64,000 bases of DNA, taken from NCBI GenBank assembly GCA_964630525.1, contig CAZVUY010000001.1, forward strand, positions 44,883-108,882. Direction: 5' to 3'. The notes beneath the pieces are model-generated. The model had not been told where the DNA came from, did not search any database, and was given only the letters and a program-made list of their open reading frames with translations. This DNA comes from an uncultured Candidatus Saccharibacteria bacterium. Its GTDB lineage: Bacteria; Patescibacteriota; Minisyncoccia; Phycocordibacterales; WO2-35-19. Shown here in pieces: positions 14,230 to 35,582 of the stretch. The first letter of the stretch is position 1. Every line of letters starts with the position of its first letter. Both the position numbers and the translations under genes were made by a program.

Positions 14230-15975
14230 TTACATCCTTTCTGGTACCTTTATACCCAAAAGATGGAGGCCATTTTTGAGAATGTGATAGACCGACTCAG
14301 TGAGTGCCACCTTGTAAGAAGAAGTTGGGTCTTCTTCACTTATTATTTTGTTATTACCATAAAAACTATTGAAAGCTGAGGCGAGTTCGGTGAGATAAGT
14401 GACCAAATGGTGCGGTGCGTACTCCTGCCCAGCCCGCTCGACAATTTCCGGAAAACGATAGAGCATTCTTTCGACTTCAGTCGGTTCCCACTCCGCTAAA
14501 GCTTCGCGGGATAAATCCCAATTTTGAAGTACCTCTTCGCCCCCCTCTCCTAACCTAGGAGAGGGGCTGGGGGTGAGGTTGGCTTTTTCAAGCACAGATT
14601 TTGCCCTTACTGCCGTATATTGTAAGTATGGTCCACTGTCCCCTTCAAAAGAAATCGACTTTTCAAAATCAAAAACAATATCGCCCCCGATCGCTTGTCG
14701 CAGTATCGAATACTTGATCGCACCTATACCAACTTGCTCTGCTATTTTTACTGCCTCTTCTCCATCTATAACTTCTGGTATTCTGCCATTCTGATGCATT
14801 TTTTCTAAAACCCTGTCTTGGATCTGCTGAATCAAACTTCCTGCAGTGATCACGTCCCCTGTTCTTGAAGACATCTTGCCGGTCGGTAGCCGCAACATGC
14901 CGTGAGACAAATGCTTCAACTTACCCTTTAATTCTGCGAAAATCTCTCCAATAGCTACTTCAACAACTTTGAAAAAAGAGTCTTGCTCGTTTGCTGTTAC
15001 TGTTATTGATTGAACGTAGTTGCCAAAACTGCTTATCTTTAATTTAGCCAAACCGAGCTCCTTGGCTTCATAAGTTGGCAAACCATCTTTATTTAAGAAA
15101 ACTCTGGTGTGAGTCTTTGGCTCAAAATTTTCTCCCCGAAAAACAACCGCTCCTTCTGATTCTTCAAAAATTTTTCCTGTATTTTCCTTTACCAACTCCT
15201 GCCCTATCTCCCCCGATTCGCTTTCAAAAAAATGTTTGTCAAAATGACTATCTAATTTTTTATAGGTTGATTCGAAATATTCTAAAGAGGTCTCTCTGCC
15301 GAGGTCATATAGTTGATTTATGTCTTGATCTTCTTTCGTATAGATTTTTTTATTTATATCGGTAGCCACACGACGCATTTCATCACTACTTTCGTACATG
15401 TTAGATCCAGCAGCATAGGCTTTACCCCAAAAAGTAACTTTATCTGAAATCGGAGCTTCGCTAGGAGGTACAAATTTATCTTGGAATGAAGTGACTCCGA
15501 GAATGGCTTTTGCCACATGTAAACCAACATCTCCATGATAGCTACAAGTTTTAACATCAGCATTGTTTGCCTTCAAAATTCTAGCGACTGATTCACCGAC
15601 CGCATTGTTCATCAGGTGGCCAATATGAAATTCCTTGAAAGGGTTTGGTTGGGTATGCTCGATAACAATCTTTTGACCAGCTAGCAATTTTGTCTCTCCA
15701 AATTGTTCACCCTGATCATTGATCTCCTTTATCGATTCAGCAAAAAATTGTTTGGAAAGTAAAAGATTGATGAATCTTGGAGGAGCAAATTCTATAGCTT
15801 CAATTTCTGCAATCTTGGTGGCCTTCAATTTTTCAAAATTAGCCTCGGCGTCTGAACCATTTATGATCAAAGTATAGTCTCCATTTTCAAGCTCTTTTGG
15901 GTGCACCAAAACCAGACCCTCTAATTCCAGCGTCTCCTTCACCCACTTTTCAATTTTTCCTTTTATTCGTGTCAT
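14230..15975 (-). CDS. argS: arginine--tRNA ligase
   Basis: HTQPNPFKEFHIGHLMN HIGH region; C-terminal DALR-type end ...KVPERM; carries an in-frame GC-rich repeat insertion (TPSPSPRLGEGG). Confidence 0.88.
   Translation of the reverse strand: MTRIKGKIEKWVKETLELEGLVLVHPKELENGDYTLIINGSDAEANFEKLKATKIAEIEAIEFAPPRFINLLLSKQFFAESIKEINDQGEQFGETKLLAGQKIVIEHTQPNPFKEFHIGHLMNNAVGESVARILKANNADVKTCSYHGDVGLHVAKAILGVTSFQDKFVPPSEAPISDKVTFWGKAYAAGSNMYESSDEMRRVATDINKKIYTKEDQDINQLYDLGRETSLEYFESTYKKLDSHFDKHFFESESGEIGQELVKENTGKIFEESEGAVVFRGENFEPKTHTRVFLNKDGLPTYEAKELGLAKLKISSFGNYVQSITVTANEQDSFFKVVEVAIGEIFAELKGKLKHLSHGMLRLPTGKMSSRTGDVITAGSLIQQIQDRVLEKMHQNGRIPEVIDGEEAVKIAEQVGIGAIKYSILRQAIGGDIVFDFEKSISFEGDSGPYLQYTAVRAKSVLEKANLTPSPSPRLGEGGEEVLQNWDLSREALAEWEPTEVERMLYRFPEIVERAGQEYAPHHLVTYLTELASAFNSFYGNNKIISEEDPTSSYKVALTESVYHILKNGLHLLGIKVPERM
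14540..14583. repeat. family-2 GC-rich palindromic repeat inside the argS CDS (in frame)
   Basis: CCCCCTCTCCTAACCTAGGAGAGGGGCTGGGGGTGAGGTTGG. Confidence 0.65.
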
Positions 15976-16004
15976 TCGTTTCCAATTCGTGTATTAGTGT
16001 CGTG
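15962..16004. repeat. family-1 TTCGTGT repeat copy; supplies the argS start codon and first codons
   Basis: TTTTATTCGTGTCATTCGTTTCCAATTCGTGTATTAGTGTCGTG. Confidence 0.7.
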
Positions 16005-16054
16005 TACTATTTATACCACTTCCGGTATCAAAAAAGAAAGTTATATCTGAACCT

Positions 16055-16092
16055 CATCAAAAGTGGCCGCTCGGAAATACACGAGCGGCCAC
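16055..16092 (-). terminator. rho-independent terminator after the HEAT-repeat gene
   Basis: GTGGCCGCTCG-GAAATACAC-GAGCGGCCAC stem followed by a T-run on the minus strand. Confidence 0.45.
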
Positions 16093-16096
16093 AAGT

Positions 16097-16708
16097 CTAT
16101 TTTCCATAGAAACCCGCTAGCCCGTCTCTAGCCACTTTCCGGTTTGATTCAAGAGCATCACTTACAACGTCACCAAGCTCTTTGTTGCCCATGATTCCTT
16201 GCAGAAAATACAAGGCTTCTCTTCTGCCAGAAATACCGAGAGCTTGTACGGCCGCTCGAGCAACATAAAGCTGATGATTGCCCCCGACCATTGTTGGAGA
16301 GTTCCAAGAAAGAAAACCCGGCCGATCTCTTGATTCCACCAGTTTTTTGAGAAAATCCATCGGCTTATCACCGCCCTTGTTGGCCAAAAAGCCGAGAGCC
16401 TGCACGGCCGCGAATTTTGCGTCCCACTGGTGTTCAGTTATACGACCGTTACCTTGGGTAATAATACCAACGATCAAACCCGCCTGCTTTTCGTCACCGA
16501 TGATTCCAATCATTGACACCGCATTAGCCCAACACTTCTGCTTAGAAGCATCGTTCACAATAGCGATCAATTTTGCCATTGGATCTGGATTTTTAGGCAG
16601 AGCCGCAACCAAAGTATACGGCACGCCATGAATAAACGTTGCGCAAGCAATTTCTTCCACCGTACTGCCACCCAGTAAGGTTGGCAAAAGAGCTAGAGCT
16701 AGCTTCAT
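16097..16708 (-). CDS. secreted HEAT/PBS-lyase-like repeat protein
   Basis: signal peptide MKLALALLPTLLGG; repeated ...AAVQALG... helical repeats. Confidence 0.5.
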   Translation of the reverse strand: MKLALALLPTLLGGSTVEEIACATFIHGVPYTLVAALPKNPDPMAKLIAIVNDASKQKCWANAVSMIGIIGDEKQAGLIVGIITQGNGRITEHQWDAKFAAVQALGFLANKGGDKPMDFLKKLVESRDRPGFLSWNSPTMVGGNHQLYVARAAVQALGISGRREALYFLQGIMGNKELGDVVSDALESNRKVARDGLAGFYGK

Positions 16709-16741
16709 ACTAAGCCTCCTACTTTTTATAATACCATAAAC

Positions 16742-17299
16742 CTAAATTTTGCTTAACTTCCTGAAGAGTCTATACGCGGTCATGGCGCCATTCAGTGCAT
16801 TGTGTGGTTCGGGTTCGGGTGGGACGTCAAAGAGCCGACAAGCGGTTTTTAAACTAAAACTACTTTCATTTTTCAAACCTTTAGCCCAAGCGATCGAGAG
16901 TAGGTCCAGACGGTCGTGATTTTCAAAAGTATTCATCGGATTTGGAATTCCGGTTTTTAAGAAAGCATGATTAATAAAACCCCAATCGAAGGTGGCGTTG
17001 TAAGCACAAAACACTCCACCTCCGGCTCGTTCCTTATACTCCCGTACTGCTTCCTCCAAACTCACAGCCTCTTCCCAATCTTTTTCGTTATAACCGTTAT
17101 AATCTAGCGCGGCCTGTTTAGCATTTTCAATATTAGTGGGTTTTACTTTTCGATTGTAACTATCGATGATTTCAAAAGTTTCTGGGTCGAATAAAACAAG
17201 ACCAATTTCAAGTATTTCATGGACACCAAAAATATCACCGCTTGTCTCCAAATCCGTCATTGCAATTTTTCTTTTACCTTTGTTCATTTTATTTTCCAT
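16742..17299 (-). CDS. DEDDh 3'-5' exonuclease (DnaQ-like)
   Basis: Exo I MTDLETSG, Exo II YNATFDWGF, Exo III HNALNGAMTAYRLF. Confidence 0.75.
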   Translation of the reverse strand: MENKMNKGKRKIAMTDLETSGDIFGVHEILEIGLVLFDPETFEIIDSYNRKVKPTNIENAKQAALDYNGYNEKDWEEAVSLEEAVREYKERAGGGVFCAYNATFDWGFINHAFLKTGIPNPMNTFENHDRLDLLSIAWAKGLKNESSFSLKTACRLFDVPPEPEPHNALNGAMTAYRLFRKLSKI

Positions 17300-17546
17300 A
17301 AAGTTGGTGATGAGTACCTATATGTATAAATATTGCAATTTCTCCTTCCATATAATATATGGTTCTGTAATCTCCCGTAATATTTATACTCCTACACCCA
17401 TCATACTTACCACCCAATGTGTGGTTGTTTAAAATAGGATCAAATGGATTTTCAAGAAAAATATTCCTCTTGATTTTGAAAAGTTTTTTTACCTTCTGCG
17501 GTAATTTATTGTAGTCTTTATTAAAACTACTGTGCAGAATAATCAT
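17289..17546 (-). CDS. type II toxin, RelE/YafQ family
   Basis: HTLGGKYDGCRSINITGDYRTIYYMEGEIAIFIHIGTHHQLY. Confidence 0.75.
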   Translation of the reverse strand: MIILHSSFNKDYNKLPQKVKKLFKIKRNIFLENPFDPILNNHTLGGKYDGCRSINITGDYRTIYYMEGEIAIFIHIGTHHQLYGK

Positions 17547-17824
17547 AGACTATCGAGATATCGATCCATTTCTGTCGCAGTTTTAAAAAGCGGGGAGAGA
17601 TTTTTTCCTTGCTTAATATCTTTTAGGGCTTTATCTAAAATTTTTGCAGTTTTAGCGTTAGGTAGAAGAGGAGCATTTACGGTAATGGATCTTTCTGAAA
17701 CAAATTTCCTTAATGCACTATTTACCACCAAACTCAAAGGAATACCAGCTTCTTTGGCTGTTTTTTGAGCTTCTTTTTTGAGCTTTGCATCTGTTTTTAT
17801 ATTCAATACCGTTTTCATACCCAA
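17543..17824 (-). CDS. type II antitoxin, RelB/DinJ family
   Basis: MKTVLNIKTDAKLKKEAQKTAKEAGIPLSLVVNSALRKFV RHH motif; 4-nt overlap with toxin gene. Confidence 0.75.
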   Translation of the reverse strand: MGMKTVLNIKTDAKLKKEAQKTAKEAGIPLSLVVNSALRKFVSERSITVNAPLLPNAKTAKILDKALKDIKQGKNLSPLFKTATEMDRYLDSL

Positions 17825-17857
17825 AGTATATACAACGGTTAAGTAGTAGTCAATCGG

Positions 17858-18280
17858 TCATTTCCCCGTACTCCCAAACCCACCTTCCCCTCTCTCTGTT
17901 TCTGAAAGCTTGTCTGTTTCAACAATTTCCATATGTTCCACTTTTTGCACTAACATCTGCATCACTTTGTGGCCTTTTTCAAAAGTGTAAGTATCTTTGC
18001 CGAGGTTTATAACAGCCATCACCAGCTCTCCACGAAAACTTGAGTCGATCACTCCCGCCAAAACTTTGATACCATGCTTCATCGAGAGCCCGCTCTTGTC
18101 CCAACAGAGCCCAACATAACCTTCCGGTATTTCCATCGCCACTCCGCTTCTGATCCTCACCACTTCACCTGGCTTCACCTCAACCTCTTCGAGTGCAAAC
18201 AAGTCCATCCCCGCATCTCCCTCTGTCGCATATTTTGGAAGCTTGGCCTCCGGGTGTAATTTTTTAACCTTTAGCTGCAT
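17858..18280 (-). CDS. dut: dUTP diphosphatase
   Basis: RIRSGVAME...GVIDSSFRGEL motifs. Confidence 0.85.
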   Translation of the reverse strand: MQLKVKKLHPEAKLPKYATEGDAGMDLFALEEVEVKPGEVVRIRSGVAMEIPEGYVGLCWDKSGLSMKHGIKVLAGVIDSSFRGELVMAVINLGKDTYTFEKGHKVMQMLVQKVEHMEIVETDKLSETERGEGGFGSTGK

Positions 18281-18282
18281 CT

Positions 18283-19482
18283 TTATTTTTTACCGCGCAA
18301 CACTTTATCAATCTTCCTGGCAATCGCTACAAAATCTTTTTCTTTTTTGCCCCGAGTCGTCTCGGCTGCACTACCAAGTCTTATACCTGATGGATCCATC
18401 GGACTACGAGTTTCGTTTGGAATTGTATTTTTGTTGACTATAATCCCCGCCTTTTCGAGCTTATCGCTCGCCTCTTTCCCTGAAATCCCCTCCCCACCCA
18501 TCCATGTATCTACCAAAATCAAGTGAGTGTCGGTACCTCCTGAAATAACTCTCCACCCCAATTTTGAAAGTTCATCAGAAAGAGCTTTGGCGTTTTTGAT
18601 CACCTGCTTTGCATATTTTTGAAATGCAGGAGAAGCAGCTTCCTTGAGAGCCACCGCCACCGCCGCGATCTGGTTGAGGTGTGGGCCACCTTGGAGCCCA
18701 GGGAAAACGGCTTTGTCTATGAGCTCTGAAATATTTTTATCTTCTCCTTTGGCATTTTTAATCGTCACATCATTCCTCGAAAAAATCATGGCCGAACGTG
18801 GGCCCCTGAGCGTCTTGTGTACGGTAGTCGTCACCACATGAGCGCAAGCAAAAGGAGATGGGTAGGCCTTGCCCGCCACCAGCCCGGCAAAATGCGACAT
18901 GTCGACCATAAGTATCGCCCCCACTTTATCGGCAATTTCTCTAAACTTTTTAAAATCTACAATTCGCGGATAAGCAGTAAAGCCAGCGACAATAATGCTC
19001 GGTTTTTCTCTTCTGGCAATCTCTCTCACTTCTTCGTAGTCGATTTGCTCTGTCTCTTTATTTACTCCATATGCTACCTGCTCCCAAAATTTACCAGTAG
19101 CGGAAACTTTGTGTCCATGAGTGAGGTGACCACCATGATCGAGCGACATCCCCATGATCTTGCCGCCTTTTGGCACAAGGGCTAAGTACACAGCAAGATT
19201 TGCTGGACTCCCCGAAAGCGGCTGCACGTTGACAGACCATTTTGAAGTAAGCCCGAAAAGTTTGAGAGCTCTCTCTTTGGCCAAGTTTTCAATTTTGTCT
19301 ACAAACTCATTACCGCCGTAATACCGCAGTTTAGAATACCCTTCTGCGTATTTGTTGGTCAGCTCGCTCCCCAAGGCCGCGAGCACATCTTTAGAAACAT
19401 AGTTCTCAGAAGCAATCAGGTTTATAACGCTCTTCTGCCTCTTCTTCTCACTCTCAATTAATTTTTTTATTTGTATATCCAT
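18283..19482 (-). CDS. glyA: serine hydroxymethyltransferase
   Basis: LIASENYVS...; PLP-site pattern HVVTTTVHKTLRGPR. Confidence 0.92.
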   Translation of the reverse strand: MDIQIKKLIESEKKRQKSVINLIASENYVSKDVLAALGSELTNKYAEGYSKLRYYGGNEFVDKIENLAKERALKLFGLTSKWSVNVQPLSGSPANLAVYLALVPKGGKIMGMSLDHGGHLTHGHKVSATGKFWEQVAYGVNKETEQIDYEEVREIARREKPSIIVAGFTAYPRIVDFKKFREIADKVGAILMVDMSHFAGLVAGKAYPSPFACAHVVTTTVHKTLRGPRSAMIFSRNDVTIKNAKGEDKNISELIDKAVFPGLQGGPHLNQIAAVAVALKEAASPAFQKYAKQVIKNAKALSDELSKLGWRVISGGTDTHLILVDTWMGGEGISGKEASDKLEKAGIIVNKNTIPNETRSPMDPSGIRLGSAAETTRGKKEKDFVAIARKIDKVLRGKK

Positions 19483-19536
19483 AAGAAAATAGTTATTTGG
19501 TAATATTCGGTTCTGCTAAACTTATATCATCTGATT

Positions 19537-20175: not shown

Positions 20176-20201
20176 CTAAATTTATTTTTAACCCAAGACC
20201 A

Positions 20202-21557: not shown

Positions 21558-21580
21558 CATTCTTTTATACTGCAAATTCT

Positions 21581-25305: not shown

Positions 25306-26223
25306 TTATTTAGCAACTAAGTCCAATAGGTTTTCGAAAAGGCAGGCGACCGTGAGGGGGCCGACGCCGCCGGGGACGGGGGTGATGGCGGCCACTAGGG
25401 GCTCGACTTCAGCAAAGGCAACGTCACCAACGATTTTAGGTAATGAAGAGTTTGTATGTCTTTCCCTCTCCTTCACAAGGAGAGGGTCTACACGAAGTGA
25501 GGGGTGAGGTTGGTTGATCCCCACATCCACCACCACCTGCTTTTCATTCACGAAATCTTTGGTCACTAGCCCAGCCTCTCCGGCGGCCGAAACCAGAATA
25601 TCTGACTTCTTGCAGATATCCATTATCTCCGATTTTTCCATCCCTCGATGGCAGACTGTCACCTCACCACCTCTTTCCCTCAAAACTTGAGCGATCGGCC
25701 CTCCAGCGAGCTTAGAGCGGCCGATCACCGCCACCCTTTTGCCACTTACCATTACCTCATAATGATCGAGTAGAGCGAGTACCGCTCGGGCAGTCGCCGG
25801 AGTCACAACAAGGCTATCCTCAGTGTCCAGGACAGTTCTTGATACCAGACCATCCGCATCTTTGCTTTTGGGAATTGAATTTACTATTTCCTCCACATCA
25901 ACATTCTGAGGCAAAGGGAGCTGGACAATAATCCCATCTACTTCTTTATCTTCACTAAATCTTTCTATCGATCTTATTATTTTTTCTTTCGTTTCTAAAT
26001 CTTTTAATCCTCCCGTTTCCAATTTTTCTAAAATTACTTTCACCCCTATTTCTTGGCCAAAATTTGCTTTATTCCTTATATAAATATTAGAGTCCGGCCG
26101 ATCGCCAACCTGAACAATAGCCAAAGTGGGTTGGCGCCCAGCCATTTTCACTCTTGCTATTAAGTTTTGTTTCAACTGCTCCCTGACAGGAGCACCGTAA
26201 AGAATTTTTGCCATTTTGACCAA
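25306..26223 (-). CDS. folD: bifunctional methylenetetrahydrofolate dehydrogenase/cyclohydrolase
   Basis: AIVQVGDRPDSNIYIRNK...ITPVPGGVGPLTVA; contains an in-frame GC-rich repeat insertion. Confidence 0.88.
   Translation of the reverse strand: MVKMAKILYGAPVREQLKQNLIARVKMAGRQPTLAIVQVGDRPDSNIYIRNKANFGQEIGVKVILEKLETGGLKDLETKEKIIRSIERFSEDKEVDGIIVQLPLPQNVDVEEIVNSIPKSKDADGLVSRTVLDTEDSLVVTPATARAVLALLDHYEVMVSGKRVAVIGRSKLAGGPIAQVLRERGGEVTVCHRGMEKSEIMDICKKSDILVSAAGEAGLVTKDFVNEKQVVVDVGINQPHPSLRVDPLLVKERERHTNSSLPKIVGDVAFAEVEPLVAAITPVPGGVGPLTVACLFENLLDLVAK
25463..25513. repeat. family-2 GC-rich palindromic repeat inside the folD CDS (in frame)
   Basis: TTCCCTCTCCTTCACAAGGAGAGGGTCTACACGAAGTGAGGGGTGAGGTTGG. 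Confidence 0.65.
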
Positions 26224-28658: not shown

Positions 28659-28659
28659 C

Positions 28660-29412: not shown

Positions 29413-29814
29413 TTAACTTTGAAAATCGATTTCGAAAGGATACATACCCATACTACAACCACCCTTCATCACCCCAGCTATCGGCGTACCAATATCAATA
29501 TCGGTCGACCCAGAAAAGTCGAGGCTCTGTCTGATTTTCTTCTCTGGGATACTGACTGAGGCTGAACAATCAAAAGTACCTTTGGAATCAAATCTTAGAG
29601 TAGTGGGAATACCGGCTTTGGCCACACTCCGTCTTGGCTGATAACCGGCTTTCGCCCGAATTTCGATGATTTGTCGGCCGTCCACCACCTTGACATTAGC
29701 GCCCGGTGCTATCGTTTCTCCCAAATTTTGCTCGACTTCACGATCTCTGGTTAGCCAGAAAGCGCCTCCAATGAGTAAAAGAGCGATCAGAATTGAAGTA
29801 GCGGTCTCTTTCAT
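29413..29814 (-). CDS. exported hypothetical protein
   Basis: N-terminal signal-anchor; two Cys; last gene of the csoR-copA operon. Confidence 0.5.
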   Translation of the reverse strand: MKETATSILIALLLIGGAFWLTRDREVEQNLGETIAPGANVKVVDGRQIIEIRAKAGYQPRRSVAKAGIPTTLRFDSKGTFDCSASVSIPEKKIRQSLDFSGSTDIDIGTPIAGVMKGGCSMGMYPFEIDFQS

Positions 29815-29827
29815 GGCTATATTTTAC

Positions 29828-30898
29828 TTAAAAACCAAATAAAGGCGAAATCACCCCTGCTGCCGCCAAACTATTGACCAAGTTGAATAGCGCAAAAAGA
29901 ATGACGATCAGACCAGCCGTTTTAAAGAAAATCCCTTTCTTTGAGCTATGGCGCACACTAAATGAACTAAAGCTGACCAAGGCTAGTATAGGCAACGTAC
30001 CAAGGGCAAAAACCAACATAGTGAGACCGCCAACCAAAAAACTACCAGTAGAAAGAGTGTAGATCTGCATTGATTGAGTAAAACCACAGGGCAAGAAAAA
30101 AGTGAGTGCTCCCACTAAAACTGGCGTCAAAACATGGTTGATCTTGGACAGACCAATAGTATGCCTAGATAAAAATTTTGGCATACTTGGTTGTAGTTTT
30201 TTAGTGAAGTGAAAAAGATCAAGCAGGTTGATACCCAACAAAAGCATCACCCCCACTATCAGTATGTTGAGAATAAGATTCGTGGTTTGACTGAGAGCAA
30301 ACACCGAGCCCAAAACCCCAATCAATCCACCAAGGACGAAAAAGAAAACGAGGCGACTCAAATGAAACAGGGTGATCGACTGGCTAGCGCTTCGCCATTT
30401 TTGCGAATTGGCCGCAAAAGAAGCCGACATTGACAAGACCAGACCACCAACTACAGCCATGCAAGTCGAGAGAGAAGCGATAACACCAATCAAAAAAATG
30501 GTCGGGTAATTAAGTTTGGTAACGTTGACCAAATTGACTAATCCGATTTTTTGTAAAAAGACGAAAAGGGCCACAAAAGCCAGAGCAAGTAGCGCCGCCA
30601 CCCTTAATTCTGACCAATTATATTTTGGTCTTTTCAATCCCGAATCTGCCAGTGGGAAAAGAGTGTAGCCATATTGTTCAATAAATTCGGTCAGCGCTTT
30701 AGCCGCCTCGCTCTCTGACATTTCACCAAAATAACCCGAGACTTCTAGCGTCTGATTTTTGAGACTTGCCTTGACCGCCGTTACATAAGGAACCGCTCTA
30801 ATTTCACTTTCAGTCAAAAGCTCGCAAGAATGGCAATGCATACCCTTTGCTTGAAAAGAAAATGTCTTCAAAAGATTCGTGTCTTGTTGTTTATCCAT
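29828..30898 (-). CDS. heavy-metal-associated (HMA) domain fused to DsbD/CcdA-like membrane domain
   Basis: GMHCHSCE metal-binding motif then a multi-TM domain. Confidence 0.65.
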   Translation of the reverse strand: MDKQQDTNLLKTFSFQAKGMHCHSCELLTESEIRAVPYVTAVKASLKNQTLEVSGYFGEMSESEAAKALTEFIEQYGYTLFPLADSGLKRPKYNWSELRVAALLALAFVALFVFLQKIGLVNLVNVTKLNYPTIFLIGVIASLSTCMAVVGGLVLSMSASFAANSQKWRSASQSITLFHLSRLVFFFVLGGLIGVLGSVFALSQTTNLILNILIVGVMLLLGINLLDLFHFTKKLQPSMPKFLSRHTIGLSKINHVLTPVLVGALTFFLPCGFTQSMQIYTLSTGSFLVGGLTMLVFALGTLPILALVSFSSFSVRHSSKKGIFFKTAGLIVILFALFNLVNSLAAAGVISPLFGF

Positions 30899-30902
30899 AA
30901 AT

Positions 30903-33230
30903 TTATAGTCGTTTTGCCTTTAATCGTAATGAGTTGCCGACCACCGAAACACTCGACATCGCCATAGCAAACCCGGCAAATATTGGCGAGAGTAGCCAAC
31001 CAAAAATAGGATAAAACAAGCCACCTGCGAGCGGAATACCGACAATGTTGTATACAAAAGCCCAGAAAAGATTTTGCTTGATACCTGTCATGGTAATTTT
31101 AGAAAGCCTAACTGCCTGAACAAGTTTCGAAATATCACCATGAAGCAATGTTATCCCTGAAGATTCGATAGCCACATCTGTACCAGTCGCCATAGCAATA
31201 CCAACATCAGCTTCAGCAAGTGCCGGTGCATCGTTTACACCATCACCAACCATAGCCACTATTTTACCGTTTGATTTTAGATCTTTTATTTTTACAAGTT
31301 TTCCTTCTGGTAAGACTTCCGCCACCACTTCATCAATACCCACTTCACGGGCAATATATTCTGCTGCGTTTTTGTCATCACCCGTAAGCATCACTGTCTT
31401 TATCTTCATTTTGTGAAGATTTTTGATCGCCTCTACTGCTTCAGGTTTTATTTTGTCACCAACAGCAACAAAACCTAAAACTTTTTCTTTGGTTGCTACA
31501 AAAACAGGTGTTCTTCCATTTCTGGTTTCTTTCTCCATCTTTGACAGTTCAAAATCAAGACCTAACTCTGTCATTAATTTAGCGTTACCGGCGTAGTATT
31601 CAACCCCGCCAATTTCCCCCTTTACACCTTTGCCTTTTATAGCTTCAAAGTTTTCAACTTCTTTTTTAATTTCGATACCATTGTTTTTGATATAAGACAC
31701 AATGGCGTGTGCAATTGGGTGTTCTGATTTTTGTTCAAGAGCAGCTAAAACTTGGAGAACTTGTTCTTCTCCCATACCAGAATAATCTTGGATTGAAGTT
31801 ATTTCAGGTCTACCAACAGTGATGGTGCCCGTTTTGTCCATCACTAAAGTATCGACTTTATGAAGTTTTTCTAGAGTAGCAGCATCTTTGACCAAGATAC
31901 CCTCTCTTGCCCCCTTGCCGACACCCACAATAATCGCCGTCGGAGTCGCCAGACCCAGAGCACAAGGGCAAGCAATAACAAGAATACTAACAAAAGAAAC
32001 TAGCCCCAATGAAAAGGCTTCTCTAAACCCCAAATAGCTACTACCAACAGCAAGCCACAGCCCGAGAGAGACGACGGCGAGCACCAACACCACCGGCACA
32101 AAGACTGCAGAAATTTTATCGGCCAAAGCTTGTATTGGGGCTTTGCTACCCTGCGCCTCTTCAACCATTTTTATTATTCTAGAAAGCATTGTTTCCGACC
32201 CAACTTTGGTCGCTCGAAAAACAAAAGAACCAGTTGTATTGATGGTGCCACCAGTTACGATATCACCACTTTTTTTCTCGACTGGCATCGGCTCCCCACT
32301 AATCATAGACTCATCAACATATGACAAACCTTCTACCACCACCCCATCTACTGGTATAGAGCTTCCGGGACGAACAATGATCAGATCGTTATGAGCAACT
32401 TCATGTATCGATATCTCTTCTTCTTTTCCGTTGCGTTTTACAAGAGCTGTTTTGGCTTGGAGATTGAGAAGTTTCTCAATGGCATCGCCAGTTTTAAGTT
32501 TAGATTTTGCCTCAAGATATTTACCAAGAGTAATGAAGGCGATGACTACGATGGTCACTTCATAATAATTTTGCTTGGTGTTAATAAGAGACGAAAGACT
32601 CAGCTCAAAAGCTGAGACAGTAAAACTATATAAAAACGCCACCAAAGTACCGATACCGATCAATGTATCCATGTTGGCCTTGCCATAACGCAAGAAACGA
32701 TAGACACCCATCAGATAAGGTTGGCCAGCCACAAAAAGAGCGTAGGTAGCAAAAACCGGCATCAAATGATGAAAGAAATCCATCCAAATTTCCGGTATTT
32801 CTACAAAAAAACCAAGTTTAACACCAAATTCCCAAATCATTACCAAGATACTAATGAACGCGATCGGGATAAGCGCTGTCACCTTACTTTTGAGATCGGA
32901 GATTTCAGAAAGTTTCTCTTTTTTTGATTGGTTGAGACCAAGATGGGCTGCATGTTCTTCTTCGGACATACCCATTTCCTTGGCACCATGCATAAATTCA
33001 GCGCTAGAAATATCTTGGCTTTGGATAAACGTATAACCTAAGGGTTCAATTTTTGAAGAAAGCTTATTTATATTGGTTTTTGAAGTATCAAAATCAAGTT
33101 TGGCAGCTTCAGTACCATAATTCACTTCTGCAAAGTTTACCCCCTCTTCTTTTTTCAAAGTCTTCTCAATGATGGCGGCACAAGAAGCGCAATGCATCCC
33201 TTTTATTCTATAAGTCTTCGTGTTTTTCAT
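30903..33230 (-). CDS. copA: copper-translocating P-type ATPase
   Basis: GMHCASC HMA; [10 protein letters not shown]; DKTGTIT; GDGVNDAP. Confidence 0.92.
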
Positions 33231-33234
33231 ATTG

Positions 33235-33540
33235 TTAGCTTATCTTTTTAAGACGGTAAACTTCTAAAATTTCTTTGGTCGCCTTGCCACCTTCGCCTTT
33301 TTTGATTTGAGGCACCAAGCAAGAGCTCAGATGGTTTTCCATAATAACGTCTTCAATACTAGAAAGAGCTCTTTTGACAGCGGAAGTCTGGGTAATAATA
33401 TCAATACAATAAACACCCTTCTCCACCATTTCTTGTAGCCCTCGAAGCTGCCCCTCAACAATCTTGAGTCGGCGCACAATCCTTGATTTTGGTGTGATCA
33501 TGCCTGTATGGTATACCCCCTGGGGGTATTTGTCAAACAA
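33235..33540 (-). CDS. csoR: CsoR/RcnR-family metal-sensing repressor
   Basis: YCIDIITQ...H..C pattern. Confidence 0.8.
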
Positions 33541-33579
33541 AAAAATAAAGAAGTGGGGATAGTAAAACTATTTATAAAT

Positions 33580-33689
33580 TACCCAAAATAGCTTCTTTCG
33601 CTTTGCACGGATATTTTTCTGCTGAAAAATTCCTGCGTAGCAGGCTTCAGTCAAGCCTCGCAAGGCACGCTCAAGAACTATTTTGGGTA
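33580..33689. mobile_element. ~110-bp MITE-like element with 12-bp terminal inverted repeats (TACCCAAAATAG)
   Basis: TIRs at 33580-33591 and 33678-33689; interior shares ~75% identity with the element at 57704-57804. Confidence 0.55.
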
Positions 33690-34136
33690 AGTCGTATTAT
33701 TTTTAAACGGAGTGAGGTGAGCGGCGACGCCGATCGCGGCAGCGACAATGAGCACATTTTTGATGATGTACTGACCCTCGAGAGTTGGGACCATGACCCC
33801 TGTCCAAGTCTCGCCCGGCAAAAGCACCAAGGGGCCCAACGTGGTGATCAGGTGAACCAAAAGAAGTGGGATCACTACCCTCTCCGCTCCCCTGATCAGG
33901 AACAAAATACCAATCAAACATTCATACAAACCAAAAAGGACGATGAAGGTCGAAAATTCCATGATCGGCATCGTCTCGTTGAAAAGGTTTTGGACCACTT
34001 GGCTCGCTGGACTCAAACCAATCACTTTGAGCGCCCCAAACCAAAAGAAGACAACAAAAAGCGCCAATCTAGATACCGGTATCGATATCTTCCGACAAAA
34101 ATTTATGATCTTGAGGTCAATCTCCGAAATTTCCAT
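33678..34136 (-). CDS. DoxX/DUF417-like membrane protein
   Basis: 4 TM segments; start taken at MEISEID. Confidence 0.5.
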   Translation of the reverse strand: MEISEIDLKIINFCRKISIPVSRLALFVVFFWFGALKVIGLSPASQVVQNLFNETMPIMEFSTFIVLFGLYECLIGILFLIRGAERVVIPLLLVHLITTLGPLVLLPGETWTGVMVPTLEGQYIIKNVLIVAAAIGVAAHLTPFKNNTTYPK

Positions 34137-34232
34137 GGTTTTATTATAACCTAAAAATAAAGCGTGAACATCGTGGGTGCACCCATGCGGGCACACTCCA
34201 AAAATATAGTCGACTTCGTCTCGTTATTATTG

Positions 34233-34305
34233 GGTGGCTACCCGGTGTCGATCCGGGACTTAGAGTTCCACAAACTCCCGTGCAGGCCGCTACACTATAG
34301 CCACC
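34233..34305 (-). tRNA. tRNA-His (GTG)
   Basis: G-1 extra 5' base, acceptor GTGGCTA/TAGCCAC, C73 discriminator, anticodon loop TTGTGGA, T-arm CCCGGATCGACACCGGG. Confidence 0.8.
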
Positions 34306-34396
34306 ATCATTCAAAAGCTTAGAGCCAGTAATTTAAAAGTTTATAGCTTTAAGCAAAACACATTCTTACACAAAAATTAGACTTTTTCCAGTTTAA

Positions 34397-34466
34397 CCAG
34401 CAAATAGTTACTCAGCCTCGTTAGGTCATAAGGGTTTAGGCTCTCGGCTCGAGTACTATTTGCTGG
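34397..34466. repeat. 16-17-bp inverted repeat (CCAGCAAATAGTTACTC / GAGTACTATTTGCTGG) enclosing a 37-nt loop
   Basis: seen directly in sequence. Confidence 0.6.
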
Positions 34467-34469
34467 TTT

Positions 34470-34515
34470 TCCCTCCCCTGCTAATGGAAGGGCCTCACGA
34501 AGTGGAGGGTGGGGT
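34470..34515. repeat. GC-rich palindromic miniature repeat (family 2)
   Basis: CCCTCCCC...GGAGGGTGGGGTT; related to copies at 14540, 25463, 35548. Confidence 0.6.
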
Positions 34516-35162
34516 TATCTATAATCCGGCGCTTCTTCAGAAATACCGGAGGCATGAGTAACATAGCGAGCCAAAGCGTAGAGTATGCTAGAAAGGCGAT
34601 TCATGTAAGCGCGGGTATGGCTGCCGATAAGGTGACGACTGTTACCACTTTCCTCTTTTTGAGACGGGAAATCCCTTTCAAACAAAGTCTGGTTCATCTG
34701 CTCCTCGGCTACCTGGACCACTCTCCTCTCCGCCCGCCTCGCGATCGTCCGAGCAACGTCAAAGATAGAAGCGAGCCCGGCGCCAGCCAATTGATCTTGA
34801 TCAAGATAAGGTGAGCCACCCGAAATGAAGAAGGTTTTGATCGGGGGTAGCGACCTCTCGATCGTACCGATGATCTCTTCCACTTCTTTCACTTTCCTCT
34901 CCTCAATAGTTTTCTCCGCACCAGCCAGTTCGGCTTGGATGATAAAAAGATTTTTTTGAATATCATGCACTATTTCTGCTATCTTCTCTTGGCCAAGCTT
35001 CAAGCCCAAATAGGCCGACTGCACTTTGCAAAGTCCTAAAAATGAGTTTATTTCGTCCAAACTACCCAGAGCTTCAGCGATCGCCGAACTTTTTGAAATC
35101 CTCTGGTCGCAGCCAAATGTCTTGGTTGTGCCATTGTCCCCTTTGCCGGTAAATAGTGCCAT
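34515..35162 (-). CDS. ATP:cob(I)alamin adenosyltransferase (PduO/MMAB type)
   Basis: N-terminal FTGKGDNGTT motif; ~190-aa helical bundle. Confidence 0.75.
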   Translation of the reverse strand: MALFTGKGDNGTTKTFGCDQRISKSSAIAEALGSLDEINSFLGLCKVQSAYLGLKLGQEKIAEIVHDIQKNLFIIQAELAGAEKTIEERKVKEVEEIIGTIERSLPPIKTFFISGGSPYLDQDQLAGAGLASIFDVARTIARRAERRVVQVAEEQMNQTLFERDFPSQKEESGNSRHLIGSHTRAYMNRLSSILYALARYVTHASGISEEAPDYR

Positions 35163-35233
35163 AGTTTTTAAAGCTAGCCCCTAATGCCGCCAATATAGCA
35201 CGTCTGGCTTTTTATTCCATAACTAATGTTGTG

Positions 35234-35401
35234 TGCCCAGAAGAGGAGTCTCGGTCATTACATGACCAGTACACCTTTCGTATCTCCTTATCCTTCGCGC
35301 TGCTCAGGAGTGGAGATTTACTCAAGGTTTTCTCGTCCTCTCACGCAAGCAAAGCAGTTTGCTTGCTCTGGGCACCAAAAAACTGCCATTCCGCAGTTTT
35401 T
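35234..35401 (-). other. tRNA-Leu-adjacent element A: conserved 9-bp hairpin GCAAGCAAA-CTGC-TTTGCTTGC, spacer, then ~18-nt duplicate of the tRNA-Leu 3' end
   Basis: direct comparison with elements at 52560-52680 and 53738-53891. Confidence 0.65.
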
Positions 35402-35486
35402 TGGTGCCCAGGAGAGGACTCGAACCTCCACGCCTTGCGGCTTACCCACCTCAAGGGTAAATGTCTACCAATTTCAACACCTGGGC
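35402..35486 (-). tRNA. tRNA-Leu (GAG)
   Basis: GCCCAGG acceptor, long variable arm, anticodon loop TTGAGGT, GGTTCGAGTCC T-arm, CCA encoded. Confidence 0.85.
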
Positions 35487-35547
35487 ATTACAGGATAAGT
35501 ATATTCAAATTCGAACTTTTTACAATCAAAAACTTTTTGGTTTTAGT

Positions 35548-35582
35548 TCCCCTCCCCCTTGGGGAGGGGTTAGGGGTGGGGC
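35548..35582. repeat. GC-rich palindromic miniature repeat (family 2)
   Basis: CCCCTCCCCCTTGGGGAGGGGTTAGGGGTGGGGC. Confidence 0.6.

What the first reader, a model, noticed from the sequence alone, without database searches (positions are those of the whole stretch)
14540..35582. Family-2 GC-rich palindromic mini-repeat inserted in frame inside argS and folD (RPE-like behaviour)
Four copies are present at 14540-14583, 25463-25513, 34470-34515 and 35548-35582. Each is a CCCCTCTCC-loop-GGAGAGGGG hairpin plus GGGGTGAGGTTGG. Two lie inside essential coding sequences without breaking the frame. They add roughly 12-20 residues where homologues have none: the TPSPSPRLGEGG segment in ArgRS, and QPHPSLRVDPLLVKERERHTNS replacing the short RLENGK-type loop in FolD. 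This mirrors Rickettsia palindromic elements that are tolerated as peptide insertions.
Basis: partly seen in the sequence, partly recalled or inferred. Interest (0 to 1): 0.75.

Follow-up and report, generated by a model that had tools for sequence, protein, structure and literature searches.

The report
BoxC triplex repeats translated inside essential genes
The four GC-rich mini-repeats are copies of the long-known but unexplained bacterial "BoxC / triplex-motif" repeat, and two of them are read through in frame as floppy extra loops in the essential enzymes ArgRS and FolD of a Patescibacteria (CPR) bacterium. This setting is not reported for the repeat in the papers I read, and it points to a possible link with a DUF559 nuclease gene.

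Summary
Four copies lie at the stated coordinates. Two are in frame inside argS and folD. Two sit 0-4 nt after the stop codons of a PduO-type adenosyltransferase gene and rplS.

Tolerated in-frame peptide insertion, as in Rickettsia palindromic elements (RPE), is supported by several results:
- The element is read in different frames.
- Relatives include both filled and empty alleles.
- The ArgRS insert is modelled as a disordered loop.

But this is not a lineage-specific family. It is the pan-bacterial BoxC/PIT/"TM" G/C-rich intrastrand-triplex motif (CCCTCTCC–GGAGAGGG–GGGGTGAGG). It was described in E. coli as strictly intergenic, with no known means of spread.

New points:
1. The same FolD and ArgRS loops carry TM copies in many Patescibacteria orthologues, in both orientations and several frames.
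2. Synonymous sites inside the folD copy are almost frozen (third-position identity 0.88-1.0, against 0.40-0.51 in the rest of the gene).
3. In-frame TMs also occur in AlaRS, Dus, HsdR and other genes of Bacteroidota and CPR bacteria.
4. In all nine DUF559 loci examined (six from about 120 TM-pattern loci, two retrieved by protein similarity, and E. coli ycjD), TM copies lie next to the DUF559 (Vsr-like nuclease) gene. In two cases the whole unit is in frame inside LeuRS or MetRS.

No DUF559 gene is present in the window.

The parts
14540..14583 (+). TM/BoxC copy 1 (G-rich class II orientation on the + strand). It lies inside argS and is translated from the - strand as N-L-T-P-S-P-S-P-R-L-G-E-G-G (ArgRS residues 466-479).
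   Evidence: Sequence. Three-block triplex scan. Codon map. nhmmer E 2e-9. An identical copy with identical flanks is in L002, and the same 5' junction is in L154.
14230..15975 (-). argS (arginyl-tRNA synthetase, 581 aa), host of copy 1. The insert sits in the linker after the first helix of the DALR anticodon-binding domain.
   Evidence: Pfam tRNA-synt_1d 7.5e-28 and DALR_1 1e-24. PDB alignments. AlphaFold model with mean pLDDT 87.4, whose only long low-confidence stretch is 469-490, directly after helix 448-467.
25463..25513 (+). TM/BoxC copy 2, a long-loop variant in which loop 2 is 14 nt and holds the mini-hairpin CACGAAGTG. It lies inside folD and is translated as Q-P-H-P-S-L-R-V-D-P-L-L-V-K-E-R-E (FolD residues 238-254).
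   Evidence: Sequence. Triplex scan. Codon map. Orthologous copies in L003 and L005 with 94-96% nucleotide identity, against 64-69% in the rest of the gene.
25306..26223 (-). folD (bifunctional methylene-THF dehydrogenase/cyclohydrolase), host of copy 2. The insert replaces the short loop between the DVGIN strand and the (K/R)xVGDV strand.
   Evidence: Pfam THF_DHG_CYH_C 7e-44 and THF_DHG_CYH 1e-26. PDB alignments show a gap opposite the insert. Orthologue alignment A2. Empty site in L004. The model has pLDDT below 50 over 236-285.
34470..34515 (+). TM/BoxC copy 3, degenerate. Its hairpin is weakened and it has the same CACGAAGTG loop-2 insert as copy 2. It directly abuts the stop codon of the adenosyltransferase gene.
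   Evidence: Sequence. nhmmer E 4e-5. It fails the strict triplex scan. RNA fold -15.8 kcal/mol, z -0.47.
35548..35582 (+). TM/BoxC copy 4, a perfect 9-9-9 triplex motif with 3-nt loops (CTT and TTA, as in E. coli type A). It starts 4 nt after the rplS stop codon.
   Evidence: Sequence. Triplex scan. Found independently by an HMM built only from the 23 published E. coli TMECO copies, E 0.003.
34515..35162 (-). PduO-type cob(I)alamin adenosyltransferase gene, whose 3' end carries copy 3.
   Evidence: Pfam Cob_adeno_trans 3.7e-35.
35586..36071 (-). rplS (ribosomal protein L19), whose 3' end carries copy 4.
   Evidence: Pfam Ribosomal_L19 1.1e-30.

Best explanation
The four repeats are solo copies of the pan-bacterial BoxC / PIT / 'TM' element. 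This is a 35-50 nt G/C-rich unit of three blocks:
- a pyrimidine block, CCCTCTCC;
- its Watson-Crick complement, GGAGAGGG;
- a mirror-repeat purine block, GGGGTGAGG.

As single-stranded DNA, E. coli copies of this element have been shown in vitro to fold as a hairpin, a purine-motif intrastrand triplex or a G-quadruplex.

Shown here: in this Patescibacteria genome two copies lie inside argS and folD with the C-rich strand as sense strand. They are in frame and free of stops, so the ribosome should read through them. The products are Pro/Ser/Leu-Gly/Glu/Arg-rich segments: a disordered loop at the junction of the ArgRS catalytic body and the anticodon-binding domain, and an extended version of a loop in the FolD NAD(P)-binding domain that varies in length among homologues.

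Inferred: the element is a selfish or neutral passenger, not a host adaptation.
- In a compact genome with little intergenic space, many insertions would land in genes. Only in-frame copies in permissive loops would survive.
- The element is pre-adapted to this. Its blocks contain no stop codon in any frame of the C-rich strand, and in only one frame of the G-rich strand (TGA in GGTGAGG).
- This would explain why the same two FolD loops and one ArgRS linker are occupied again and again in relatives.

Shown: the nucleotide sequence is held almost fixed at synonymous sites. Inferred: what is preserved is a DNA/RNA structure or a recognition site, or else the copy spread by conversion, rather than a peptide.

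More speculative: the partner that recognises or spreads the element is a DUF559 Vsr-like nuclease, since genes for it sit next to TM copies in many phyla. No such gene is in the window. The window copies would then be non-autonomous derivatives.

The two copies just after stop codons would be transcribed into the 3' ends of the adenosyltransferase and rplS mRNAs as GC hairpins. No intrinsic-terminator T-run follows them on the mRNA strand.
For: Identity with BoxC/TM:
- The blocks match the 23 published E. coli TMECO sequences (PMC4666352 Table 1).
- Copies 1, 2 and 4 satisfy an explicit class II triad test: G*G-C and A/T*A-T triads, 8-nt blocks, at most one mismatch per arm. Thirty shuffles gave one hit in total.
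- An HMM built only from E. coli copies finds copy 4 at E 0.003 and ranks copies 2 and 1 next.

In-frame read-through:
- Three different frames are used: PHP in window folD, LTP in window argS, TSP in L153 and L105.
- Both orientations occur (L126 and L155b are G-sense).

Filled versus empty sites:
- folD in L004 reads GIN-RVNG-RLVGD with no element.
- argS in L001 is 100% identical to the window in large blocks, but carries an (AAGCTCC)n tract in place of the TM segment.

Recurrence:
- 23 of 120 FolD cluster representatives carry TM-type peptides, at only two sites. 6 of 120 ArgRS representatives do so at one site. Shuffled controls gave 0-0.05.
- The DNA was confirmed in L003, L005, L126, L153 (two sites), L154 and L155 (an inverted pair).

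Loop location:
- In the ArgRS model (pLDDT 87.4) the only long low-confidence segment is 469-490.
- Solved FolD homologues have 2-11 residues where the window has 25.

Nucleotide-level constraint, in the three pairwise comparisons of window, L003 and L005:
- Third-position identity in the 17 TM codons of folD is 0.88-1.0, against 0.40-0.51 elsewhere.
- Identical codon given the same amino acid: 14/16, 14/14 and 13/15 inside the element, against 71/175, 74/173 and 99/176 outside.

Generality: in-frame TMs occur in AlaRS (L070), Dus (L105), CN-hydrolase (L015) and NuoM-like (L113), all Pfam-confirmed. By inspection they also occur in HsdR (L047) and an RM methylase (L056).

DUF559 link:
- Six of the roughly 120 TM-pattern loci hold a DUF559 ORF (PF04480, E about 1e-34). 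In five of these (L006, L023, L041, L053, L077) inverted TMs clearly flank the ORF. In L019 the downstream copy is degenerate and the upstream side shows only a GGAGAGGG block.
- DUF559 genes retrieved by protein similarity alone also have 2-3 TMs within about 150 nt (L157, L160).
- E. coli ycjD (DUF559) has TMECO #9 downstream and a partial TM at its stop codon.
Against: - No experiment shows that the coding copies are translated rather than bypassed. The inference rests on frame and stop-codon conservation.
- The FolD model is poor over 236-285, which runs beyond the insert. The surface-loop claim for FolD therefore rests on alignments to solved homologues, not on the model.
- Frozen synonymous sites can mean constraint. 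They can equally mean recent spread of a short patch by recombination or conversion. The argS gene is visibly mosaic among near-identical relatives.
- The recurrence at the same sites could reflect a target preference rather than a selective filter.
- The loci inspected were chosen because their proteins had inserts. The high share of coding copies in them is therefore biased.
- The DUF559 link is correlative. No DUF559 gene lies in the window or in the nine CPR loci scanned. Whether the source genome has one is unknown.
- The arrangement of TMs around DUF559 is not uniform. The GGGGTGAGG block lies outermost in the two Bacteroidota loci and innermost in four others (less clearly in L019). In the two Acinetobacter loci retrieved by protein similarity the TMs lie on one side only.
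- The E. coli HMM gives only weak scores for copies 1 and 2, because their hairpin loop and loop 2 are longer.
Confidence: 0.8

Rival explanations
1. This is a lineage-specific selfish palindromic element of this genome, analogous to and evolving like Rickettsia palindromic elements, which recently invaded argS and folD.
For: - Copies are dispersed, short and palindromic, and two are in frame in essential genes.
- The argS copy is polymorphic among near-identical relatives.
Against: - The same 25-base pattern is found in almost every bacterial phylum, and it matches E. coli BoxC/TMECO.
- The folD copy is shared by orthologues about 63% identical in protein, so it is old or conserved rather than a recent invasion of this genome.
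- There are only four copies in 64 kb, and at most three TM sites in any related contig. That is not RPE-like abundance.
Confidence: 0.07
2. The coding copies are host adaptations. A stable GC hairpin in the mRNA (or a DNA structure) placed at a domain boundary slows the ribosome or polymerase. This would aid co-translational folding or regulate expression, and that benefit would explain why the nucleotide sequence is conserved.
For: - Synonymous sites are frozen.
- The hairpins are 9-11 bp, -16 to -22 kcal/mol as RNA.
- By Pfam domain coordinates, the ArgRS site lies just inside the start of the DALR domain (451-581). FolD site 2 (about aa 115-128 in orthologues) lies at the junction of the catalytic (9-124) and NAD(P)-binding (139-303) domains.
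- The same sites are occupied in many orthologues.
Against: - Many close orthologues do well without any insert (P0004, P0008, P0078, L001).
- Both orientations and several subfamilies occupy the same sites, so no single structure is required.
- The identical element also sits in non-coding DNA and in unrelated genes of other phyla.
- E. coli studies cited in PMC4666352 found no promoter, terminator or polymerase-blocking activity in vivo.
- Fold z-scores are modest, -0.5 to -1.9.
Confidence: 0.15
3. The similarity is at protein level or compositional. These would be Pro/Gly-rich low-complexity linkers that arose independently, with GC-run similarity arising by chance.
For: The encoded peptides are low-complexity, and the aligned DNA is short and made of C-runs and G-runs.
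Against: - The element is read in three frames and both orientations, giving different peptides from the same DNA.
- Two copies are non-coding.
- Shuffles give essentially no matches.
- Copies 2 and 3 share the non-GC-run loop insert CACGAAGTG.
- Synonymous sites are conserved.
Confidence: 0.02
4. The coding copies are footprints or miniature derivatives left by a DUF559 nuclease element that homes into conserved genes. On this view the site recurrence reflects nuclease target specificity, not a permissive-loop filter.
For: - The whole TM-DUF559-TM unit is in frame in LeuRS (L041) and MetRS (L023).
- L155 folD carries an inverted TM pair 11 nt apart, like an internally deleted unit.
- DUF559 is grouped with Vsr and a group I intron homing endonuclease in one PD-(D/E)XK clade in PMC3424549.
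- The sampled hosts are rich in aminoacyl-tRNA synthetases.
Against: - No DUF559 gene or remnant is found in the window or the CPR loci.
- The sequences flanking the three occupied sites show no obvious common target.
- No filled/empty pair with clean boundaries or target-site duplication was found.
- Most TMs in other bacteria are intergenic.
Confidence: 0.2

Closest known systems
E. coli BoxC / PIT (potential intrastrand triplex) elements / TMECO G/C-rich triplex motif (Holder et al. 2015, PMC4666352; Kaplan et al. 2016, PMC5100583, 'G-quadruplex-hairpin-duplex switch')
   Same: - Same three blocks (CCCTCTCC(C) / GGGAGAGG(G) / GGGGTGAGG), the same order, and the same mirror-repeat logic of the third block.
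- Copy 4 even has the 3-nt TTA second loop of E. coli type A.
- Dispersed and short, with no coding capacity of its own.
- Sometimes found in close inverted pairs (L155 folD, like the E. coli type A + B pairs).
- Associated with local rearrangement between close relatives (argS allele mosaic).
   Different: - In E. coli all 23 copies are intergenic. Here two of four are translated inside essential genes.
- Hairpin loops are longer as written (7 nt), although the stems extend to leave 3-nt loops.
- Copies 2 and 3 carry a 14/11-nt second loop with a mini-hairpin, outside the 1-6 nt loop limit of the ITxF definition.
- The host is a roughly 42% GC Patescibacteria genome with few copies.
Rickettsia palindromic elements (RPE; Ogata et al. 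2000, as cited in PMC3184786)
   Same: A palindromic repeat inserted in frame into conserved protein genes and tolerated as an extra peptide segment in loops. Copies occur both in genes and between them.
   Different: - RPEs are about 105-146 bp and restricted to Rickettsia.
- There is no sequence relation to the element here, which is 35-50 nt, is found in almost all bacterial phyla, and has a triplex/G4-type three-block anatomy.
REP sequences and their RAYT transposase (REPINs); also BRE, RUP and Coxiella MITEs, which are found fused into ORFs (PMC3733652, PMC3184786, PMC5896051)
   Same: - Short GC-rich extragenic palindromes dispersed in many copies.
- One or few copies of a nuclease-type gene that is itself flanked by the repeats. 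This is the arrangement seen here for DUF559 and TM.
   Different: - The associated protein is a Vsr-like PD-(D/E)XK domain (DUF559), not a Y1 HUH transposase.
- There is no GTAG/CGTC tag.
- The functional link between DUF559 and TM is untested.
Homing endonuclease genes, inteins and Vsr-like homing endonucleases. The Vsr/DUF559 clade in PMC3424549 includes a group I intron homing endonuclease; I recall this as I-Bth0305I, from memory.
   Same: A small nuclease ORF nested inside highly conserved essential genes (LeuRS in L041, MetRS in L023).
   Different: - No intron or intein splicing apparatus is present. The DUF559 unit and its TM ends are simply in frame with the host protein.
- This concerns related loci, not the window itself.

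Membership tests
BoxC / PIT / TM (G/C-rich class II intrastrand triplex motif) | Three consecutive blocks on one strand: a pyrimidine block, its Watson-Crick purine complement, and a third purine block antiparallel to the second that gives G*G-C and A/T*A-T triads. The ITxF definition requires a stem of 6-15 nt, with one mismatch allowed if the stem is longer than 7. | tested here: met
   My own scan with 8-nt blocks and at most one mismatch per arm recovers copies 1, 2 and 4. Thirty shuffles gave one hit in total. Copy 3 fails (degenerate).
BoxC / PIT / TM (G/C-rich class II intrastrand triplex motif) | Sequence consensus CCCTCTCCC...GGGAGAGGG...GGGTGAGGG, as in the 23 E. coli TMECO copies. 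| tested here: met
   - The blocks of copies 1 and 2 match the published blocks apart from one base at a block end.
- Copy 4 is the CCCCTCCCC/GGGGAGGGG/GGGGTGGGG variant. An HMM built only from E. coli copies finds it at E 0.003, while copies 2 and 1 rank next but weakly, E 2.7 and 6.6.
- The exact 25-base pattern is shared with Enterobacteriaceae, Pseudomonas, Xanthomonas and others.
BoxC / PIT / TM (G/C-rich class II intrastrand triplex motif) | Short loops (1-6 nt in the ITxF definition; 3-4 nt in E. coli). | tested here: inconclusive
   - Copy 4: loops of 3 and 3 nt.
- Copy 1: the stem extends to 11 bp, leaving a 3-nt loop, and the second loop is 2 nt.
- Copies 2 and 3: the second loop is 14 and 11 nt, outside the definition. 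These are a long-loop variant.
BoxC / PIT / TM (G/C-rich class II intrastrand triplex motif) | Intergenic location. This is a described property in E. coli, not a definition. | tested here: not met
   Copies 1 and 2 lie in frame inside argS and folD. Copies 3 and 4 are intergenic but abut stop codons.
BoxC / PIT / TM (G/C-rich class II intrastrand triplex motif) | Physical formation of an intrastrand triplex or G-quadruplex by the G-rich strand. | not testable with these tools
   Only nearest-neighbour hairpin folding was possible. CD/NMR evidence exists for the E. coli sequence only (PMC4666352; PMC5100583).
Rickettsia palindromic elements (RPE) | A 100-150 bp palindromic unit with the RPE family consensus, restricted to Rickettsia. 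| tested here: not met
   The unit here is 35-50 nt and is found across bacterial phyla. No sequence comparison with RPE consensus sequences was run. The sizes come from PMC3184786.
Rickettsia palindromic elements (RPE) | In-frame insertion into conserved protein genes, tolerated as a surface peptide segment. | tested here: met
   This is a shared behaviour, not evidence of membership.
REP/RAYT-type repeat-plus-nuclease system | A nuclease or transposase gene flanked by copies of the dispersed repeat. | tested here: inconclusive
   - Met in related loci for DUF559: L006, L019, L023, L041, L053, L077, L157, L160 and E. coli ycjD.
- Not met in the window or the CPR loci, which have no DUF559.
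- The protein is not a RAYT, so this is an analogy only.

The most novel reading that the evidence does not exclude
BoxC/TM repeats have been unexplained since the early 1990s, and the 2015 study found no association with mobile elements. They may be the cognate repeats (termini, miniature pairs and solo derivatives) of a pan-bacterial family of small DUF559 Vsr-like nuclease elements. That would be a REP/RAYT-like or homing-endonuclease-like system.

Because the repeat is open in nearly all reading frames, both the solo repeats and the whole nuclease unit can live in frame inside essential genes (ArgRS, FolD, AlaRS, LeuRS, MetRS, Dus). They would be translated rather than spliced out.

On this reading the argS and folD copies in the window are such solo derivatives, kept nearly invariant at synonymous sites by the recognition or structural requirements of that system.
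Probability: 0.4. Interest if true: 0.85.

Novelty: new variant of a known kind. Interest (0 to 1): 0.62.

Why it matters
BoxC/PIT/TM elements are among the oldest unexplained repeats in bacterial genomes. They are extremely conserved across phyla and can form triplex or G4 structures. They are linked to local genome instability, yet have no known function or means of spread, and are described as strictly intergenic.

Three things follow from this work:
1. The elements can sit in frame inside aminoacyl-tRNA synthetases and FolD, with synonymous sites frozen. This gives a clean natural experiment that separates selection on nucleic-acid sequence from selection on protein.
2. The recurrent juxtaposition with DUF559 (YcjD-type) nuclease genes gives a concrete and cheap hypothesis that can be tested in E. 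coli.
3. For CPR biology, some of the odd insertions in essential proteins of these reduced genomes are repeat-derived passengers, not lineage-specific functional domains.

There is also a practical point. Annotation pipelines and protein-family alignments should mask these segments.

Tried and rejected
- **Rfam.** At gathering threshold, the window gave only four tRNAs. Eighteen TM-rich loci gave only C4 antisense RNA families unrelated to the repeat. No Rfam family covers the element.
- **E. coli-only HMM.** It is too narrow for the CPR copies with longer loops. Only copy 4 was significant.
- **Metagenome scan with the FolD protein.** It returned mostly distant (33-40% identical) FolDs. Only L126 was useful.
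- **Last large protein search, with a DUF559 profile.** It returned only standalone Acinetobacter proteins. It gave no census of fusion architectures.
- **Clean filled/empty pair for argS.** The closest relative (L001) has a different repeat tract at the site, and the gene is mosaic. No insertion boundaries or target duplication could be read.
- **Intrinsic terminator role for copies 3 and 4.** Rejected, because no T-run follows the hairpin on the mRNA strand.
- **GTAG-tagged REP.** Considered because copy 2 has GTAG before the hairpin. Rejected, because the other copies lack it.
- **CRISPR array.** Considered for the regularly spaced copies in L020 (78-nt period) and L012 (about 151-nt period). 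Not followed up. The intervening sequence is itself repeated, so these look like tandem duplications.
- **E. coli fabI-ycjD-sapF polymorphism.** About 2,000 of 5,426 genomes lose homology roughly 40 nt before TMECO #9. This was not resolved.
- **Additional copies in the window.** Sites at 41368-41386 and 45965-45987 picked up by a loose 13-mer search are not TM copies.

Full report
**1. The observation**

On the + strand each has three parts:
- a pyrimidine block (CCCTCTCC, or CCCCTCCCC in the variant);
- a short loop followed by the complementary purine block (GGAGAGGG);
- a second loop followed by a further purine block (GGGGTGAGG or GGGGTGGGG).

The hairpin pattern occurs three times in the window and never in 100 shuffles. 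A profile of the element finds exactly the four sites, plus one marginal decayed candidate at 6290-6324. The profile was built partly from these copies, so that test is circular.

Pfam confirms that 14230-15975(-) is ArgRS and 25306-26223(-) is FolD. Copies 3 and 4 lie directly 3' of a PduO-type adenosyltransferase gene and of rplS. Copy 3 abuts the stop codon. Copy 4 starts 4 nt after it.

The best protein matches are to Patescibacteria (Paceibacteria / Zambryskibacteria-like), which places the organism there.

**2. The coding copies are in frame and are a DNA element, not a protein motif**

- In argS the element is read AAC CTC ACC CCC AGC CCC TCT CCT AGG TTA GGA GAG GGG GGC, giving NLTPSPSPRLGEGG.
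- In folD it is read one base out of register, CCT CAC CCC TCA CTT ..., giving PHPSLRVDPLLVKERE.
- In relatives a third frame is used: TSPLTPLLAKERG in L153 folD and TSPPTPLLDKERG in a Nomurabacteria Dus gene.
- The opposite orientation also occurs: APLPLARGGVGGGV in L126 folD.
- By inspection, the three blocks contain no stop codon in any frame of the C-rich strand. They contain a stop in only one frame of the G-rich strand (TGA in GGTGAGG).

**3. What the element is**

A 25-base exact pattern taken from the window copies (CCTCACCCC-N1-16-CCCTCTCC-N3-9-GGAGAGGG) was scanned against one genome per bacterial species. Hits came from Pseudomonas, Xanthomonas, Enterobacter, Klebsiella, Acinetobacter, Rhodopseudomonas, Chloroflexota, Planctomycetota, Bacteroidota, Cyanobacteria, Acidobacteriota, Ca. 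Nomurabacteria and more.

A full-text search for the block sequences led to two papers:
- Holder et al. [quoted passage not shown]
- Kaplan et al. 2016, 'G-quadruplex-hairpin-duplex switch' (PMC5100583).

The element is the E. coli BoxC repeat, rediscovered as the PIT element and then as the 'TM' G/C-rich class II intrastrand triplex motif. The 23 E. coli K-12 copies read CCCTCTCCC-N3-4-GGGAGAGGG-TTA/CCG-GGGTGAGGG.

Two further tests support this identification:
- My own triad test (G*G-C and A/T*A-T, 8-nt blocks, at most one mismatch per arm) is passed by copies 1, 2 and 4, and by essentially no shuffled sequence.
- An HMM built from the E. coli copies alone finds copy 4 at E 0.003. It ranks copies 2 and 1 next, but weakly, because their loops are longer.

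Copies 2 and 3 are a long-loop variant with a CACGAAGTG mini-hairpin in the second loop. No Rfam family covers the element.

Both papers state that in E. coli every copy is intergenic. Holder et al. also found no association with mobile elements.

**4. Comparison with orthologues**

*FolD (alignment A2).*
- Orthologues 56-64% identical to the window protein carry inserts at the same loop, between DVGIN and (K/R)xVGDV. Others have none (P0004, P0008, P0049, P0078).
- In P0002, P0003 and P0006 the peptide is almost identical to the window's.
- At DNA level, L003 and L005 carry the same long-loop TM at the same position. L004 has an empty site, GGGATTAAT-AGGGTGAATGGA-AGATTAGTT.
- Inside the 17 TM codons, third-position identity is 0.88-1.0, against 0.40-0.51 in the rest of the gene.
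- Codons for identical residues are themselves identical in 14/16, 14/14 and 13/15 cases, against 71/175, 74/173 and 99/176.
- So what is held constant is the nucleotide sequence. Either it is under constraint, or the short patch has spread more recently than the genes diverged.

*ArgRS.*
- L001 is 100% identical to the window over long blocks but about 50% identical in others. This is a mosaic, recombining population.
- At the TM position L001 has an (AAGCTCC)n tract encoding LSSKLQAPSSV instead.
- L002 is more divergent overall, yet carries an identical TM with identical flanks.
- L154 (57% protein identity to the window) has the same 5' junction with a decayed hairpin.

*Census.*
- A peptide-signature scan finds TM-type segments in 23 of 120 FolD cluster representatives, at only two places (after KDADGL and after DVGIN).
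- It finds them in 6 of 120 ArgRS representatives, at one place. Shuffled controls gave 0-0.05.
- DNA confirms two separate sites in L153 folD, a G-sense copy in L126, and an inverted pair 11 nt apart in L155.
- Several independent insertions into the same permissive loops are therefore needed to explain the data.

*Other repeats at the ArgRS site.* The same ArgRS linker also holds several other recurrent, repeat-like peptide families in other Patescibacteria.

**5. Where the inserts sit in the proteins**

- The ArgRS model is good (mean pLDDT 87.4). Its only long low-confidence stretch is 469-490, directly after helix 448-467. This is the TM-encoded segment and the residues just after it, at the start of the DALR domain.
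- The best-matching solved ArgRS (2zue) has a 5-residue gap opposite part of the TM-encoded segment, in a poorly conserved linker.
- In FolD, solved homologues have 2-11 residues where the window has 25.
- The FolD model is poor from 236 to 285, so it adds little.

**6. Beyond Patescibacteria**

Thirty-one pattern hits fell in loci below 50% GC. Seven of those loci carry hits that lie in long ORFs which are real genes:
- AlaRS (L070), CN-hydrolase (L015), a NuoM-like antiporter subunit (L113), Dus (L105) and LeuRS (L041, two hits), all Pfam-confirmed;
- HsdR (L047) and a restriction-modification methylase (L056), by inspection.

In-frame residence therefore looks like a general capacity of this element in low-GC lineages. 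In-frame fusion of small repeats is itself a known phenomenon (RPE, BRE, RUP; PMC3184786). I found no report of it for BoxC/TM in the library searched.

**7. A lead on mechanism**

In L041 the LeuRS ORF contains two inverted TMs about 400 bp apart. The segment between them is a DUF559 domain. tblastn and an HMM then found DUF559 ORFs in six of the roughly 120 TM-pattern loci.
- All six are PF04480 at E about 1e-34.
- In five (L006, L023, L041, L053, L077) inverted TM copies clearly flank the ORF. In L019 the downstream copy is degenerate and the upstream side shows only a GGAGAGGG block.
- They come from Bacteroidota, Alpha-, Beta- and Gammaproteobacteria and Planctomycetota.

In L023 the whole unit is in frame in MetRS, between the anticodon-binding and tRNA_bind domains. 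In L077 it is fused to the C-terminus of a GATase_5 protein.

DUF559 genes retrieved by protein similarity alone also have two or three canonical TMs within about 150 nt (L157, L160).

In E. coli K-12 the DUF559 gene ycjD has TMECO #9 about 170 nt downstream. It also has a partial TM overlapping its stop codon, and a duplicated remnant of its own 3' end in between.

DUF559 is grouped with Vsr and with a group I intron homing endonuclease in the PD-(D/E)XK classification (PMC3424549).

Searches for DUF559 and ycjD turned up no title or abstract connecting them to BoxC/TM; only three of those papers were opened.

The arrangement recalls RAYT genes flanked by REPs. It is not uniform, however, and it is purely correlative. 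No DUF559 sequence is present in the window or in the nine CPR loci scanned.

**8. Most likely account**

*Shown:*
- The window holds four solo BoxC/TM copies.
- Two are in frame in loops of ArgRS and FolD.
- These positions are repeatedly occupied in relatives.
- The folD copy is nearly invariant at synonymous sites.

*Inferred:*
- The copies are translated as disordered loop segments.
- They are passengers filtered by selection for in-frame, loop-located insertions in a gene-dense genome, helped by the near absence of stop codons in the element.
- The nucleotide conservation reflects a structural or recognition requirement of the element itself, or recent patch transfer.

*Speculative:* a DUF559 nuclease is the partner that recognises or spreads the repeat.

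*Rivals.* The main rival is host adaptation: a hairpin that pauses the ribosome at a domain boundary. Against it stand the many insert-free orthologues, the mixed orientations and the element's ubiquity in unrelated contexts. A lineage-specific RPE-like family and a purely compositional explanation are both refuted.

**9. Verdict**

The finding is real, and its behavioural analogy to RPEs holds. The element itself is already known (BoxC/PIT/TM).

What appears new:
- the coding context, in frame in essential genes of CPR bacteria and Bacteroidota;
- the frozen synonymous sites;
- the association with DUF559.

I rate it a new variant of a known kind, of moderate to high interest. Most of that interest lies in the testable DUF559 hypothesis.

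Noticed in passing
window about 15260-15530 (argS, - strand) and the TM segment at 14480-14600; compared with L001 and L002: argS is a mosaic among close relatives. Window and L001 are 100% identical over long blocks but only about 50% identical over roughly 270 nt in the middle of the gene, where L001 equals L002 instead. This suggests recombination between diverged alleles, or chimeric short-read contigs.
   Followed up: partly
L001 about 11395-11440 (argS linker): Where the window has the TM copy, the near-identical relative has a tandem heptanucleotide tract, (AAGCTCC)x3-4, translated as LSSKLQAPSSV. Several other orthologues share this peptide (P0125, P0155, P0176, P0214).
   Followed up: partly
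ArgRS orthologue alignment, linker after VRAKSVLEKA (window residues about 465-495): This linker is a hot spot for several unrelated, recurrent repeat-like peptides in Patescibacteria: DPAKNVFSKKSSGLLASLGQTFFSK, NSQFSISKQFPNPNFQ, KSEILNSKSETNSKSKIQ, NYTTPKKPRVTLDT and DMSRLNLDMSK. Other repeat families probably insert here in frame as well.
   Followed up: no
L041 6629-7083 (Cytophagales LeuRS); L023 2111-2649 (betaproteobacterial MetRS); L077 3763-4288: A complete DUF559 nuclease domain, bracketed by inverted TM repeats, lies in frame inside LeuRS (just before the editing domain) and inside MetRS (before the C-terminal tRNA_bind domain). In L077 it is fused to the C-terminus of a GATase_5 protein. 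No intein or intron features were seen.
   Followed up: partly
L156 (E. coli K-12 1349500-1352500), 1706-1741, 1823-1870 and 1896-1925: ycjD (DUF559) has BoxC/TMECO #9 downstream, a partial TM overlapping its stop codon, and a duplicated remnant of its own 3' end in between. About 2,000 of 5,426 complete E. coli genomes lose homology roughly 40 nt before this TM.
   Followed up: partly
window 6290-6324: A possible decayed, AT-drifted TM copy (TTCCCTCTCATTAAAAAAGAAAGGGATTGATGAGGT) in an intergenic gap. nhmmer E 0.64 only.
   Followed up: no
window 35368-35411; also 38727-38814, 46029-46064 and 49005-49049: Long, perfect A/T-run-containing hairpins (19-29 nt arms) that look like bidirectional intrinsic terminators. 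The first lies in the roughly 385-nt gap between rplS and the adenosyltransferase gene. At that position the syntenic relative L153 has a LAGLIDADG-type ORF instead.
   Followed up: no
L005 1688-5053: The IleRS of a related Patescibacteria contig (1121 aa) has a His_Phos_1 (histidine phosphatase) domain hit nested between two tRNA-synt_1 hits. An RVT_1 reverse-transcriptase gene lies immediately upstream.
   Followed up: no
L020 61-251 and L012 421-755: TM copies repeated at regular spacing (78 nt in a Bacteroidales MAG, about 151 nt in Pseudomonas crudilactis), with the intervening sequence also repeated. These are tandemly amplified TM-containing units. In L012 they lie near C4 antisense RNA (P1/P7-phage-type) matches.
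   Followed up: no
window FolD residues about 68-80 (window about 25985-26020, - strand): A third variable site in FolD, after the KKF/EKL strand. The window has an extra ETGGLKDLE segment. Other orthologues carry unrelated inserts here (ECDPILLKLHGASTN, ELDTNTQMSTNDTN). These are not TM-derived.
   Followed up: no
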